From NCBI RefSeq assembly GCF_026571515.1, contig NW_026855510.1, forward strand, positions 62,001 to 126,000: a stretch of 64,000 bases of DNA. The letters are read 5' to 3'. This stretch comes from Ruditapes philippinarum (taxonomy: Eukaryota). Position numbers: made by a program. Positions 51,001 to 54,000 of the stretch are shown one piece after another. Every line of letters begins with the position of its first letter. The first letter of the stretch is position 1.

Positions 51001-54000
51001 TGCCACCAGTCTTTTGATGTTAGAGTTTCTGATTTTAGTGAATAGGCCATTTTTTGAAAATAGTTTTGTTTTGCAGTGCGAATCAGAGATACTGCTTCAT
51101 TTCTTAATGTTTTAAATTTATGCCAGTGAAGAGGATTTTGTATTAATTTAGCTCTATGGTAGTATTTTTTGCGTTTAGTAATTTTTCTTTTTTTATATGT
51201 GACGATATCCATGGTTTGTCATTTGGTTTTACATTTATGTTTCGTGTTGGCAGAGACCTAGATATCTATGTTTCTGGTGTTGGAATACACTGCTTTGCAA
51301 GTTTAAGCATATTGTTTGTAAATGAGGAAGCGTAGTTGTTGATATCGTTATCCTTAAATTGATCCCAATCTGTAGCAGAAATGTTTAATCAAAGCTTGAT
51401 TGTACTGCTACATAATTTCCTCAAGTGAAATGTCTTCAGATTGTTACTTTTATATTCTCGTTTATATATTTCTCAAATATTTGGAAAAGAATAGTATCAG
51501 TCGTTAATATGGTATATACAATAAGATATTATATTCTGTCGTTAATCCATTTATTTAAGTGTTTTGACAGATCTGTTTCATATACATATTTTACATGATG
51601 TTCTTTTATTTAAATCACATTAGGTTTTACTTATTTTGTAAAAAAAAATATAGCGTTTAAGCAATAAATGTCCTCTGTTTTTGAATTTATATTTTGTCAA
51701 ATGAGATCGTTCGATTCTCAAATTTCGTGGTATACCGGTATTTAGTTAATTATATCTGCAACAAGTTTTCATTGCATACTATCATGTTAAAGCTGCATTT
51801 TATAAATATATAAAACATATTTTTCTGTTGGCTTAAAAACCAAGCATTCTATAATTTCATTAACCTTTCTAACAGTAGTGTTAATCTCTTCAAATAGTGT
51901 TCATAAATAATTATTTTAAAAGGAAAACACCTAGGTAACAGTAAAGTCCGTATACGAATATTAATACATTTAGCATGCAAATGAGGACTATAATTAGCTC
52001 GTGTATTCTCTGCGTCACAGTGGTATTTTATGAAATTTATAAAATGCATAATTATCATACTCGCTAGTCAACAATATTTTCAATTAGTTTTCATCTACAT
52101 CTACATTATACTGCTTAACAATCAATTCTGATTATGACTAACAGGCGCGTTGTCAGGGAACTGTTAATAAAAGAAATTATTTATATGCAAATTAAAAAGT
52201 TAAAAGAATAAAAGTTCTACAAGACTATTAATTTAAAAGACATAGTGTGCGATTTAGAATTTATAGAATGGGTCAAGCCTCTCAGTAAAGATGTTTAAAC
52301 TGGGGCTAGACTTAACAGTTAGAGGAAGGCTATTCCAAAAAAAATAGAGTAAAGCAGAATCCCTAAAGAAAGCCCAACACAACAAAATTGAAAAATGTTG
52401 CAGGCTCGGTTTGATTGAGCCTGTTCATGGACGGTACTGGAAAGTGCAAGTTACCGTCCACGCCCCCTAGCACCGGCTTAAGCAGAATTCAACATTTAAA
52501 CACAGAAATGGTGAAATTTTGAATTTAGAAACATCCGCAGATGTGTTCATACGGCGGTCATCATGGAACCTTCAATGTGACACAGTAGTGTCATTCCATG
52601 AAAAGCGGCGTATGGTCCCCAAGTAAAAGAATGCGTGTGCCCTAAACGAGAAAACAATGGGCGGAACTAAATAAAATGGAATTTTGAAAGGGGATCTGAG
52701 GTTATGAAGCCTGCATATCACAGATAAGACGTCAAAAGACAAATTTAAAAAGCAGGCAACATATCCTAAGGGTGATTATACAGTATTCAAGTAGGAATAC
52801 TGGAACCACCCAAGTTGAAAATGGCCAAAAAGAAGAAACTAAAAGTACCACATAACATGTTTACACAACAATAATGTTGTGCTGAACGATCTTCAAGGAT
52901 CGAAAATATAACATCATTGATTAAATGTACGGGGAGACTTTTTACAGCCGCCACACGGCACAAATAACACGGATGTGACAATAAAATAGAGTAAAGCAGA
53001 ATCCCTAAAGAAAGCCCAACACAACAAAATTGAAAATGTTGCAGGCTCGGTTTGATTGAGCCTGTTCATGGACGGTACTGGAAAGTGCAAGTTACCGTCC
53101 ACGCCCCCTAGCACCGGCTTAAGCAGAATTCAACATTTAAACACAGAAATGGTGAAATTTTGAATTTAGAAACATCCGCAGATGTGTTCATACGGCGGTC
53201 ATCATGGAACCTTCAATGTGACACAGTAGTGTCATTCCATGAAAAGCGGCGTATGGTCCCCAAGTAAAAGAATGCGTGTGCCCTAAACGAGAAAACAATG
53301 GGCGGAACTAAATAAAATGGAATTTTGAAAGGGGATCTGAGGTTATGAAGCCTGCATATCACAGATAAAACGTCAAAAGACAAATTTAAAAAGCAGGCAA
53401 CATATCCTAAGGGTGATTATACAGTATTCAAGTAGGAATACTGGAACCACCCAAGTTGAAAATGGCCAAAAAGAAGAAACTAAAAGTACCACATAACATG
53501 TTTACACAACAATAATGTTGTGCTGAACGATCTTCAAGGATCGAAAATATAACATCATTGATTAAATGTACGGGGAGACTTTTTTCAGCCGCCACACGGC
53601 ACAAATAACACGGATGTGACAATAAAATAGAGTAAAGCAGAATCCCTAAAGAAAGCCCAACACAACAAAATTGAAAATGTTGCAGGCTCGGTTTGATTGA
53701 GCCTGTTCAAAGACTTATTCTCCTAGGAAAGAAAGAATTTTGATGATATTGTGTCCTCGAGAAGGGTATCAGGTAGTTCAGATTTCTTGTTTGAGTAAGG
53801 TATTGGTGGTCAACAAAAACAATGTTGTTTTGGATTTTATACAAGTAGGTTACAGCACTGATGTTTCGACGCTGTTCAAGGGTTTGCAAATTAAGATCAT
53901 TTATCATTTTTGAGACACTTCTTGTATAGTCATAATCATTAAAAATGTATCTAGCAGCTGATCTTTGTACTTGCTCTGTCTTATAAATCAAGTATTTCTG

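What the first reader, a model, noticed from the sequence alone, without database searches (positions are those of the whole stretch)
52338..53711. Circularly permuted 2.1-mer of a 641-bp unit inserted into a LINE Trp codon: Penelope/retrozyme-like
Seen: the LINE reads FFPRRISL at 53708 and resumes WNSLPLTVK at 52337, so the whole 1.37-kb block is one insertion with only CAAA microhomology. The block is two full, near-identical units plus an 84-bp partial third. Older fragments lie at 28077-28301 and about 35412, and an inverted pair lies at 43270-43615. Known: partial-tandem or inverted pseudo-LTRs typify Penelope-like elements, and multimeric non-coding units typify retrozymes copied from circular RNA. 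Inference: this is a young, non-coding retroelement copied by rolling-circle-like reverse transcription.
Basis: partly seen in the sequence, partly recalled or inferred. Interest (0 to 1): 0.65.

Follow-up and report, generated by a model that had tools for sequence, protein, structure and literature searches.

The report
Partial-tandem non-coding repeat inside a clam LINE
A young, non-coding 641-base mobile repeat has inserted as 2.13 head-to-tail copies into an older jumping gene of a bivalve; it looks like a helper-dependent retroelement of the Penelope-like style, has no ribozyme, and is an ordinary if unclassified member of a known kind.

Summary
Window 52343-53710 is 642 + 641 + 85 bases of one repeat; the two full units differ at 3 positions. 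Removing 1372 bases restores a minus-strand LINE reading frame with no residue lost, and CAAA stands at both junctions.

The retrozyme reading fails on its defining feature. I found no hammerhead or other Rfam ribozyme and no CUGANGA core.

The phases are not arbitrary. The left end coincides with the sharp end of old copy B. The right end coincides with the end of old copy E. None of the 6 old copies continues beyond unit position 1, while 5 of 6 run past position 85, up to 327.

Read on the minus strand, the block is an 85-base 5'-truncated copy followed by two full copies, ending at a fixed 3' end (...CTCTA plus a T run). An old head-to-head inverted pair also exists.

The best fit, at about 0.45, is target-primed reverse transcription of a multi-unit RNA, as in non-autonomous Penelope-like elements. 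The host is a heterodont bivalve.

The rivals are a Helentron-like rolling-circle DNA element, a TRIM-like LTR element and later unequal crossover. No copies could be mapped outside the window.

The parts
52340..53711 (-). Whole inserted block. It is 1372 bases counting one CAAA, or 1368 bases if CAAA is a 4-base target-site duplication. The strand given is the inferred sense strand.
   Evidence: The sense strand is inferred from the nested truncations of the old copies.
52336..52339 (.). Left CAAA. It is either a target-site duplication or junction microhomology. It overlaps the Leu/Trp codons CTT TGG of the LINE.
53708..53711 (.). Right CAAA.
52343..52984 (-). Full unit, 642 bases. On the sense strand it is the last (3'-most) copy and ends ...CTCTA plus T8 against the target.
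52985..53625 (-). Full unit, 641 bases. This is the reference for unit positions (position 1 = 52985). It is 40% G+C.
53626..53710 (-). Partial unit, positions 1-85. On the sense strand it is the 5'-truncated first copy, a pseudo-LTR-like repeat.
53042..53064 (.). Hairpin 1, CAGGCTC-GGTTTGATT-GAGCCTG (unit positions 58-80). It is also at 52401-52423 and 53683-53705. It is the best-kept stretch of the family and ends 4-5 bases from the right end of the block.
   Evidence: Folding gives -15.3 kcal/mol (+ strand) and -11.6 kcal/mol (- strand), with 0 of 200 shuffles as stable.
53069..53101 (.). Hairpin 2, GGACGGTA...TACCGTCC (unit positions 85-117). It is also at 52428-52460. The block's sense-strand 5' end lies at its base.
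   Evidence: -14.7 and -13.3 kcal/mol. A stall of the reverse transcriptase at this point is inference.
53710..54783 (-). Host LINE, reverse-transcriptase frame of 358 aa ending FFPRRISL.
   Evidence: (RVT_1, E 1.4e-31)
52257..52337 (-). Host LINE, last 27 codons, WNSLPLTVK...KF before the stop.
55704..56573 (-). Host LINE, endonuclease frame.
   Evidence: Exo_endo_phos_2, E 8.5e-10
43338..43664 (+). Old copy B, unit positions 327 to 1, 77% identical. Its end at position 1 is sharp (...CTCTATTT then CAACCA). The strand given is the inferred sense strand.
43258..43349 (-). Old copy D, unit positions 137 to 44, 72% identical. It lies head to head with B and the two share 12 bases, TAGCACCGCCTT, at the join.
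   Evidence: Extension to 43212 and a CAACCA duplication at 43206-43211 / 43663-43668 are not significant.
28002..28301 (-). Old copy C. Unit positions 284 to 49 are firm (80% identical). By eye it is traceable to AAATAGA at 28002-28008, against a MITE-like repeat that ends at 28003.
35377..35437 (-). Old copy E, unit positions 85 to 28. Homology stops at ...TTCA, the same place as the right end of the young block.
   Evidence: 921 of 1000 shuffles score as high beyond position 85
29750..29810 (+). Old copy F, unit positions about 132 to 24. Weak.
18678..18772 (+). Old copy G, unit positions about 103 to 9. Weak. By eye a T9 run follows at about 18790-18800, just before the start codon of a sulfotransferase frame.

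Best explanation
The block is one insertion of a non-coding, hairpin-rich, helper-dependent retroelement into the last part of a LINE reading frame in a heterodont bivalve.

Read on the window's minus strand, it is a partial tandem. An 85-base 5'-truncated copy is followed head to tail by two full 641-base copies. It ends at the family's fixed 3' end (...GCTTTACTCTA plus a run of T).

The most likely mechanism is target-primed reverse transcription of an RNA spanning several units. That RNA would come from a tandem master copy or, less likely, from a circle.
1. A nick after ...CCAAA on the plus strand primes DNA synthesis at a fixed site in the RNA (unit position 1).
2. The enzyme runs through two unit boundaries.
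3. It ends at the base of hairpin 2 in the third unit, or at the RNA's 5' end there.
4. A second nick 4 bases away gives the CAAA duplication.

Shown: the anatomy, the clean insertion, the fixed ends, and the lack of coding capacity and of any ribozyme.

Inferred: the sense strand, the RNA intermediate, the stall site and the kind of helper.
For: 1. The insertion is clean, with a 4-base repeat at the junctions and no host residue lost.
2. There is a common end. Old copy B ends sharply at unit position 1, where the young block ends. For 0 of 6 old copies did fewer than 43 of 1000 shuffles match the observed similarity to unit positions 521-641 beyond position 1.
3. The other end varies. The old copies reach positions 327, 284, 137, 132, 103 and 85, so 5 of 6 run past position 85. 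This is the nested 5'-truncation pattern of target-primed reverse transcription.
4. Old copies B and D lie head to head. Both contain positions 44-137 and their truncated ends are joined at 12 shared bases. Two overlapping copies in opposite orientation fit priming on both strands, as shown for a PLE in vitro (PMC11167929, main text). They also fit the 'inverted 5'-truncated copy' described for PLEs (PMC8557442, passages).
5. A partial tandem with a 5'-truncated upstream copy is the stated hallmark of PLEs. [quoted passage not shown]
6. The two internal unit junctions are identical. This fits a template that already held the junction better than it fits jumps between separate RNAs.
7. The host is a bivalve. 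Naiad PLEs are reported to dominate bivalve genomes and to lack canonical hammerheads (PMC8557442, passages), so the missing ribozyme is no obstacle.
8. The unit is strongly structured, with z = -6.3 (+) and -8.7 (-) against 20 shuffles each.
Against: - No reverse transcriptase / GIY-YIG frame of a PLE lies in the window, among 55 frames of 90 aa or more scanned against Pfam. I could not test for similarity to any autonomous element.
- Only B has a sharp end at position 1. The others fade at positions 9-49 in an A-rich stretch, and my shuffle tests of the outer parts of D and E were not significant.
- A 3' end made of a T run of varying length is not a known mark of retroelements. By eye the runs are T8, T3, T3, T9 and T8. 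This is what Helentron-type elements show (PMC4067079, passages).
- If the duplication is denied, the insertion falls exactly between two T's.
- Naiads are reported to prefer (TA)n targets, which this target is not.
- Folding does not tell the strand. Hairpins 1 and 2 are slightly more stable on the plus strand, while the whole unit is more stable on the minus strand.
- Six old copies from one 64-kb window is a small sample.
Confidence: 0.45

Rival explanations
1. Helentron-like rolling-circle DNA element (a HINE relative), oriented on the window's minus strand. Single-strand transfer starts near hairpin 1, reads through two terminators in a tandem or circular donor, and ends at the third. The insertion falls between two T's without target duplication.
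For: - If the 5' end is TGAA, as in old copy E, the young block sits exactly between T and T of GTCTT|TGGAA and needs no duplication (inference).
- The T run at the 3' end varies in length between copies (by eye). HINEs are described as having variable T strings at their boundaries (PMC4067079, passages).
- A palindrome lies 4 bases from one end, and the same palindrome lies 56 bases from the other. The distances quoted for HINE subTIRs are 2-4 and 38-60 bases.
- Bivalve genomes are reported to be full of HINEs carrying tandem repeats. Whole Helitrons can also stand in tandem (PMC7492417, passages).
Against: - No subterminal inverted repeat joins the two ends. Of the 8 inverted pairs found in one unit plus the partial copy, none links the termini.
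- There is no 5'-TC or 3'-CTRR.
- The repeat period includes the supposed termini, whereas HINE repeats lie between distinct left and right modules.
- 5 of 6 old copies run past the supposed 5' end at position 85, and their far ends differ. This looks like 5' truncation.
- The head-to-head pair B/D has no ready explanation under this model.
- No Rep/helicase frame lies in the window.
Confidence: 0.2
2. TRIM-like miniature LTR retrotransposon. Its 85-base terminal direct repeats flank a 556-base inner domain, here in the tandem form TDR3_I2. That form would arise by template switching or by unequal recombination between the repeats.
For: - The A-B-A-B-A layout equals the TDRx_I(x-1) pattern reported for biv-TRIM arrays in clams. 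Solo repeats are also reported there (PMC6934838, Results part 1 and Discussion read). Old copy E could be such a solo repeat.
- A 4-base duplication fits an integrase.
- The inner domain starts with TGG directly after ...TTCA.
- biv-TRIM itself lacks a clear primer-binding site and has conserved hairpins.
Against: - The repeat does not start with TG on the plus strand. It ends in CA only if the duplication is 2 bases.
- On the minus strand it starts with TG but ends in a T run.
- No polypurine tract stands before the downstream repeat on either strand.
- The bases after the repeat are not kept in the old copies.
- 5 of 6 old copies join the repeat to one side of the inner domain, and 0 of 6 to the other. 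LTR elements give no reason for that asymmetry.
- The sizes differ from biv-TRIM, which has repeats of 202-218 bases and an inner domain of 77-80.
Confidence: 0.1
3. A circular RNA of about 641 nt is copied by rolling-circle reverse transcription, as in a retrozyme but without a known ribozyme.
For: - The two unit junctions are identical, and the two full units differ at only 3 positions, 2 of them in homopolymer runs.
- The unit folds far better than shuffles on both strands, as viroid-like and retrozyme RNAs do.
- Metazoan retrozymes occur as dimers to multimers of low G+C, and mussels express them as circles (PMC7229834, passages).
Against: - No hammerhead or any other self-cleaving family was found in Rfam 15, and no CUGANGA core on either strand.
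- The unit is larger than the 150-450 bases quoted for animal retrozymes.
- Fixed ends shared with old copies need a defined start site in any case.
- A linear multi-unit RNA explains the same facts, and a PLE was shown to use unprocessed multi-copy RNA in vitro.
Confidence: 0.1
4. A single copy (A-B-A, 726 bases, or one unit) inserted by any of the above routes. The second unit arose later in place, by unequal crossover or replication slippage between the 85-base repeats.
For: - The same 4-base repeat would still flank the array.
- The 3 differences between the units could have accumulated since such a duplication.
- This route is the one proposed for tandem TRIMs (PMC6934838, Discussion).
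Against: Nothing in the window speaks against it. It is not exclusive of the other explanations and does not say what the element is. PLE-type elements are reported to insert as multicopy tandems directly.
Confidence: 0.12
5. Assembly artefact: one unit was written twice by the assembler.
For: 2 of the 3 differences between the units lie in homopolymer runs, a typical long-read error. No reads were available to check the span.
Against: The units are not identical. The window holds no N or gap. The flanks are unique LINE sequence in frame. A 1.4-kb array is well within the length of a long read.
Confidence: 0.03

Closest known systems
Non-autonomous Penelope-like elements, such as the non-autonomous Chlamys families including MRC1 of Chlamydomonas (PMC8557442, passages)
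   Same: Non-coding. Forms a pseudo-LTR through a 5'-truncated upstream copy. Makes multicopy head-to-tail insertions. No hammerhead. Easily mistaken for an LTR element. Head-to-head inverted truncated copies occur in the family.
   Different: I could not test for shared sequence with the 3' end of an autonomous PLE. The host is an animal, where the partner would be a Naiad or another clade. The target is not a microsatellite. The 3' end carries a T run of varying length, which is not described for PLEs in what I read.
Metazoan non-LTR retrozymes (PMC7229834, passages; bioRxiv 10.64898/2026.07.22.740005, abstract and passages)
   Same: Tandem non-coding units of low G+C (40% here). Dimers to multimers. 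Strongly folded RNA. Thought to depend on PLEs.
   Different: There is no type I hammerhead in any unit, which is the defining feature. The unit is 641 bases against 150-450. No circle has been shown.
biv-TRIM, terminal-repeat retrotransposons in miniature of bivalves (PMC6934838)
   Same: Terminal direct repeats around a short inner domain. Tandem form TDR3_I2. Possible solo repeat. Conserved hairpins. No clear primer-binding site. Bivalve host.
   Different: Repeats of 85 bases against 202-218, and an inner domain of 556 against 77-80. No TG...CA ends and no polypurine tract before the repeat. The old copies are anchored at one end only.
Helentron-associated interspersed elements (HINE, DINE-1, Cg_HINE) (PMC4067079 and PMC7492417, passages)
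   Same: T-rich target. A possible insertion between two T's. A T string of varying length at the boundary. Palindromes near the ends. Tandem repeats. Abundant in bivalves.
   Different: No subterminal inverted repeats. No distinct left and right modules around the repeats. The far ends of the old copies vary. A 4-base duplication is possible.

Membership tests
Metazoan non-LTR retrozyme | A type I hammerhead ribozyme in every repeat unit | tested here: not met
   Rfam 15 gave 0 matches at gathering score in the whole window. At E up to 10 in 52200-53800 it gave 8 weak matches, none to a ribozyme family. CTGANGA is absent on both strands of the block.
Metazoan non-LTR retrozyme | Short tandem units (150-450 bases) of low G+C | tested here: inconclusive
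   The tandem arrangement and the 40% G+C are met. The unit is 641 bases, outside the range quoted in PMC7229834.
Metazoan non-LTR retrozyme | Expressed as monomeric circular RNA | not testable with these tools
   No RNA data were available.
Penelope-like element, autonomous | A reading frame with a telomerase-like RT and a GIY-YIG endonuclease | tested here: not met
   The longest frame in the unit is 92 aa and has no Pfam match. No GIY-YIG match was found in any of the 55 frames of 90 aa or more in the window.
Penelope-like element, non-autonomous derivative | Partial tandem in which a 5'-truncated copy precedes full copies (pseudo-LTR) | tested here: met
   On the minus strand the block reads 85-base copy, then a 641-base and a 642-base unit. 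The choice of strand rests on the old copies.
Penelope-like element, non-autonomous derivative | Inverted 5'-truncated copy adjoining the 5' end | tested here: met
   Old copies D and B lie head to head and both hold unit positions 44-137. This holds for 1 locus of the 6 old copies plus the young block. It is not present at the young block.
Penelope-like element, non-autonomous derivative | Sequence shared with the 3' end or pLTR of an autonomous PLE of the same genome | not testable with these tools
   There is no PLE in the window and no eukaryotic genome collection on hand. The supplementary consensus files of PMC8557442 are closed.
Penelope-like element, non-autonomous derivative | Hammerhead motif in the pLTR (canonical clades only; Naiad and most Chlamys lack it) | tested here: not met
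   This feature is not defining for Naiad/Chlamys according to PMC8557442.
TRIM / LTR retrotransposon | Terminal direct repeats and a 4-6-base target duplication | tested here: met
   The 85-base repeat stands at both ends and once inside. CAAA stands at both junctions. The duplication could equally be microhomology.
TRIM / LTR retrotransposon | Repeats that begin TG and end CA | tested here: not met
   On the plus strand the repeat begins AAAATAGAG. On the minus strand it begins TGAACAGG but ends in a T run.
TRIM / LTR retrotransposon | A primer-binding site complementary to a tRNA 3' end, next to the 5' repeat | tested here: inconclusive
   TGG follows ...TTCA, but the window has no tRNA gene to compare with. 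The stretch is not kept in the old copies.
TRIM / LTR retrotransposon | A polypurine tract directly before the 3' repeat | tested here: not met
   The bases before the internal repeat (...ACGGATGTGACAAT) are not purine-rich. The same holds on the other strand.
Helitron | 5'-TC and 3'-CTRR ends, insertion between A and T | tested here: not met
   The ends read AAAATAGAG... and ...CCTGTTCA. The target CCAAAG has no AT at the break.
Helentron / HINE | Subterminal inverted repeats of 11-15 bases at both ends | tested here: not met
   None of the 8 inverted pairs found in 52985-53715 links the two ends. Only the 7-base stems of hairpin 1 recur.
Helentron / HINE | Insertion in a TT dinucleotide with no target duplication, T strings at the boundaries, and a palindrome near the 3' end | tested here: inconclusive
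   This is compatible if CAAA is not a duplication. No second filled/empty pair was available.
SINE | A tRNA, 5S or 7SL-derived head | tested here: not met
   ARAGORN found 0 genes in the window. Rfam gave no such match.

The most novel reading that the evidence does not exclude
The 641-nt unit is a ribozyme-free counterpart of a retrozyme. It would be a densely folded non-coding RNA that exists as a circle or an endless tandem transcript, copied by a Penelope-like (Naiad-type) reverse transcriptase from a fixed internal start site. Hairpins 1 and 2 at the start/stop point would take the role that hammerheads play elsewhere, or would hide an undescribed processing motif.
Probability: 0.1. Interest if true: 0.65.

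Novelty: new member of a known kind. Interest (0 to 1): 0.3.

Why it matters
- **Recent activity.** The two units are 99.5% identical and sit inside a LINE frame. This marks a recently active non-autonomous element in a heterodont bivalve, a group whose repeats are poorly catalogued.
- **A model for how dispersed tandem repeats start.** It shows how one insertion event can deposit a ready-made short tandem array. This bears on how dispersed satellite-like arrays arise in bivalve genomes.
- **An annotation trap.** The same A-B-A-B-A layout can be filed as an LTR element, a Penelope-like partial tandem, a Helitron tandem or a retrozyme. Only the distribution of copy ends tells them apart.
- **If the helper is a hammerhead-less Naiad.** The family would be an animal counterpart of the non-autonomous Chlamys elements of green algae.

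Tried and rejected
- **Ribozymes and known RNAs.** The Rfam gathering search of the window gave 0 matches. The permissive search of 52200-53800 gave only weak miRNA, snoRNA and lncRNA chance matches. The CUGANGA scan found nothing. ARAGORN found 0 tRNA genes.
- **Coding capacity.** The 92-aa frames in the unit have no Pfam match. No PLE, Helitron or integrase frame was found among the 55 frames scanned. The RT fragments at 8943-10958 belong to another LINE.
- **Telling the strand by folding.** The whole unit favours the minus strand, while hairpins 1 and 2 slightly favour the plus strand. I dropped this as evidence.
- **Extending old copies D and E to unit position 1.** The shuffle tests were not significant (1712 and 1647 of 2000 shuffles scored as high). 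The 6-base CAACCA repeat around D/B is therefore only a hint.
- **Apparent continuation of copy C across position 1**. This falls in a MITE-like repeat that ends at 28003 and reached only 43 of 1000 in the shuffle test. I treat it as chance.
- **Subterminal inverted repeats.** None was found.
- **More copies in the window.** A profile built from the 7 copies found nothing new.
- **Copies elsewhere.** Two exact-pattern scans of the bacterial/archaeal genome collection were tried because symbiont bins carry host LINE contamination. Both gave 0 hits.
- **The listing of cluster members** could not be run because the shared database was off.
- **Left unchecked.** No eukaryotic genome collection was available, and the metagenome and viral collections and the paper supplements were closed. 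Genome-wide copy mapping and comparison with published PLE consensus sequences therefore stayed unchecked.
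Full report
**1. The observation**

The window is A+T-rich (about 30-39% G+C per 2 kb) and holds no N. A BLAST of one unit against the window gives three head-to-tail pieces:
- 52343-52984, 642 bases;
- 52985-53625, 641 bases, 99.5% identical;
- 53626-53709, 85 aligned positions, 98.8% identical.

The repeat finder gives spacings of 641 and 642. Tandem Repeats Finder missed the array only because its longest period is 500.

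The two full units differ at 3 positions: an extra A in an A run at 52391, G/A at 52728 versus 53369, and A/T in a T run at 52944 versus 53585. The partial copy equals the second unit up to ...CCTGTTCA.

**2. One clean insertion**

On the minus strand a LINE runs from about 56573 down to about 52257. Its frames match Exo_endo_phos_2 (E 8.5e-10) and RVT_1 (E 1.4e-31). The reverse-transcriptase frame ends FFPRRISL at 53710, and the frame WNSLPLTVK...KF-stop starts at 52337.

Joining the flanks by coordinates restores one frame for five equivalent cut pairs. Each removes 1372 bases, because CAAA stands at both 52336-52339 and 53708-53711.

Six relatives of the LINE protein read ...SFFPR(T/S)I(R/K)(L/Y)WN(S/G/N)LP... 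across this point. The two window pieces abut with no residue missing (alignment A1). The block is therefore an insertion that lost nothing from the host. CAAA is either a 4-base target duplication or junction microhomology.

**3. The host organism**

- Named relatives of the LINE protein come from Mactra antiquata, Pinctada imbricata and bins of a lucinid-clam symbiont. The last are presumably host contamination.
- The nearest named relatives of a sulfotransferase encoded in the window are from Mercenaria, Ruditapes and Mactra, at 49% identity or less.

I take the organism for a heterodont bivalve that is not close to these species. It is not human.

**4. What the unit lacks**

- No Rfam family reaches its gathering score anywhere in the window.
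- At E up to 10, the 8 matches in 52200-53800 are weak miRNA, snoRNA and lncRNA chance hits.
- CUGANGA, the hammerhead core, is absent on both strands.
- There is no tRNA-like gene.
- The longest frame in the unit is 92 aa and has no Pfam match. None of the 55 frames of 90 aa or more in the window is a PLE, Helitron or integrase protein.

**5. What the unit has**

It is 40% G+C and full of hairpins. As RNA it folds with z = -6.3 on the plus strand and -8.7 on the minus strand, against 20 shuffles each.

Two hairpins stand side by side at the point where the block ends:
- Hairpin 1, CAGGCTC-GGTTTGATT-GAGCCTG, unit positions 58-80.
- Hairpin 2, GGACGGTA...TACCGTCC, unit positions 85-117.

Hairpin 1 is the best-kept stretch of the family. 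Its 19-base core occurs 6 times in the window at up to 3 mismatches, against 0 in 100 shuffles.

**6. The older copies and the ends**

Besides the young block, the window holds six old copies. A profile built from all seven finds no more. In unit coordinates (position 1 = 52985) they cover:

| Copy | Unit positions | Identity |
|---|---|---|
| B | 1-327 | 77% |
| C | 49-284 | 80% |
| D | 44-137 | 72% |
| E | 28-84 | not recorded |
| F | about 24-132 | weak |
| G | about 9-103 | weak |

Three points follow.
- B's homology starts sharply at AAATAGAG, the same place as the left end of the young block.
- E's homology stops at ...TTCA, the same place as the right end of the young block. Beyond it, 921 of 1000 shuffles score as high, while copy C, used as a control, continues (0 of 1000).
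- None of the six copies shows convincing similarity to unit positions 521-641 beyond position 1. The numbers of shuffles (of 1000) scoring at least as high were 332 (B), 880 (G), 83 (F), 43 (C, inside a MITE-like repeat), 889 (E) and 971 (D). In contrast, 5 of 6 copies run past position 85.

The family therefore has one common end at position 1. The other end varies: positions 85, 103, 132, 137, 284 and 327.

By eye, the common end is ...CTCTA followed by a T run of varying length when read on the complementary strand. The runs are T8 in the young block, T3 in B, T3 in C, T9 in G and T8 in E. My shuffle tests of the outer parts of D and E were not significant, so only B and, by eye, C are sharp.

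**7. The reading**

A common end with nested truncations at the other end is the signature of target-primed reverse transcription, where the common end is the 3' end (established knowledge of non-LTR elements). The sense strand is therefore the complement of the unit as written on the plus strand, which for the young block is the window's minus strand.

In that sense the block is an 85-base 5'-truncated copy followed by two full copies, ending at the fixed 3' end. The 5' end lies at the base of hairpin 2, where E also starts. This is either a stall site of the enzyme or the 5' end of the RNA (inference).

The two internal junctions are identical. That fits a template that already contained the junction, meaning a transcript of a tandem master or a circle. 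It fits jumps between separate RNAs less well.

**8. The inverted pair**

D (43258-43349) and B (43338-43664) lie head to head. Both hold positions 44-137. Their truncated ends meet at 12 shared bases, and both outer ends point to position 1.

L1-type twin priming gives non-overlapping segments (recalled). Two overlapping copies fit priming on both target strands instead.

A CAACCA repeat at 43206-43211 and 43663-43668 could be their target duplication. It is not statistically secure.

**9. Comparison with what is known**

*Penelope-like elements (PLEs).*
- PMC8557442 (passages) states that PLE insertions are highly 5'-truncated and often form partial tandems that give pseudo-LTRs. They often have an inverted 5'-truncated copy at the 5' end.
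- The same paper states that Naiad PLEs dominate bivalve genomes and lack canonical hammerheads. [quoted passage not shown]
- PMC11167929 (main text read) shows that a PLE protein cleaves and extends both strands. It starts reverse transcription at fixed sites inside a multi-copy RNA, in a stem-loop, and does not need hammerhead cleavage.

The block matches this pattern, apart from the untested link to a partner.

*Retrozymes.* Animal retrozymes are defined by a type I hammerhead in each 150-450-base unit (PMC7229834, passages; bioRxiv 10.64898/2026.07.22.740005, abstract and passages). That feature was tested here and not met.

**10. Rivals**

*Helentron-like rolling-circle DNA element.* This is the strongest rival.
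- For: HINEs insert at TT, carry T strings of varying number at their boundaries, have palindromes near their ends, make no duplication and abound in bivalves (PMC4067079 and PMC7492417, passages). If CAAA is not a duplication, the block sits exactly between two T's.
- Against: no subterminal inverted repeats, no distinct end modules, the varying far ends of the old copies, and the inverted pair.

*TRIM-like LTR element.*
- For: it shares the TDR3_I2 layout and the possible 4-base duplication (PMC6934838).
- Against: it lacks TG...CA ends and a polypurine tract, and it would not explain why 5 of 6 old copies join the repeat to one side of the inner domain and 0 of 6 to the other.

*Later unequal crossover between the 85-base repeats.* This cannot be excluded and is compatible with any of the element types.

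*Assembly artefact.* This is unlikely, because the units differ, the flanks are unique and there is no gap.

**11. What stayed open**

- No eukaryotic genome collection was on hand.
- Two exact-pattern scans of the bacterial/archaeal genome collection found nothing.
- The listing of cluster members could not be run.
- The metagenome and viral collections and paper supplements were closed. The supplementary consensus sequences of PMC8557442 might have allowed a test against Naiad 3' ends.
- In searches I found no description of a hammerhead-less non-autonomous PLE derivative in a bivalve. These were four keyword searches of open-access text only.

**12. Verdict**

The feature is real, young and cleanly inserted. 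It is most likely a non-autonomous retroelement that inserts as a partial tandem in the Penelope-like manner (confidence 0.45). It is not a retrozyme by the defining test and not shown to come from a circle. I rate it a new member of a known kind, of modest interest.

Noticed in passing
window 18805-19989, 33571-34572, 39737-40888, 45946-47109 (+): Four paralogous single-frame genes of the Sulfotransfer_2 family (carbohydrate sulfotransferase 11-like by named relatives) lie in tandem, 6-14 kb apart and 75-80% identical in DNA. The second lacks the N-terminal part of the frame.
   Followed up: partly
window 4201-5118 (-): An open frame of 306 aa with a DHHC palmitoyltransferase domain (E 5.7e-33).
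   Followed up: no
window 56554-57953: A satellite-like array of 156-base units (8.9 copies, 79% matches) with a higher-order period of 470 (89%). It starts exactly where the endonuclease frame of the host LINE ends (56573). The unit size recalls the 140-180-base repeats carried by bivalve HINEs.
   Followed up: no
window 190-433, 1418-1666, 27792-28003, 31726-31886, 49090-49287: A repeat of about 210-245 bases that matches itself in both orientations (MITE-like, long inverted ends), in five copies 80-95% alike. One copy abuts old copy C of the family studied.
   Followed up: partly
window 61693-61955: A perfect tandem of a 52-base unit, 5.1 copies, 100% matches.
   Followed up: no
window 14948-15753; 20457-21481; 23869-24173; 63812-63987: Further tandem arrays with periods of 33/66/99, about 80, 22 and 32 bases. 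The window is unusually rich in short dispersed arrays.
   Followed up: no
window 8943-10958 (+) and 49316-51218 (-): Two more decayed LINE copies with RVT_1 matches in several shifted frames. The second ends ...RDWNSLS, the same C-terminal motif type as the host LINE.
   Followed up: partly
window 18678-18804: Old copy G of the family, with a T9 run by eye, ends a few bases before the ATG of the first sulfotransferase frame. An old insertion therefore forms the immediate upstream region of that gene.
   Followed up: no
window 53001-53032 with 53510-53541: Inside the unit, a 32-base stretch of the terminal repeat is 72% complementary to a stretch 477 bases away. This pairing closes the minimum-energy fold of the minus-strand RNA.
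   Followed up: no
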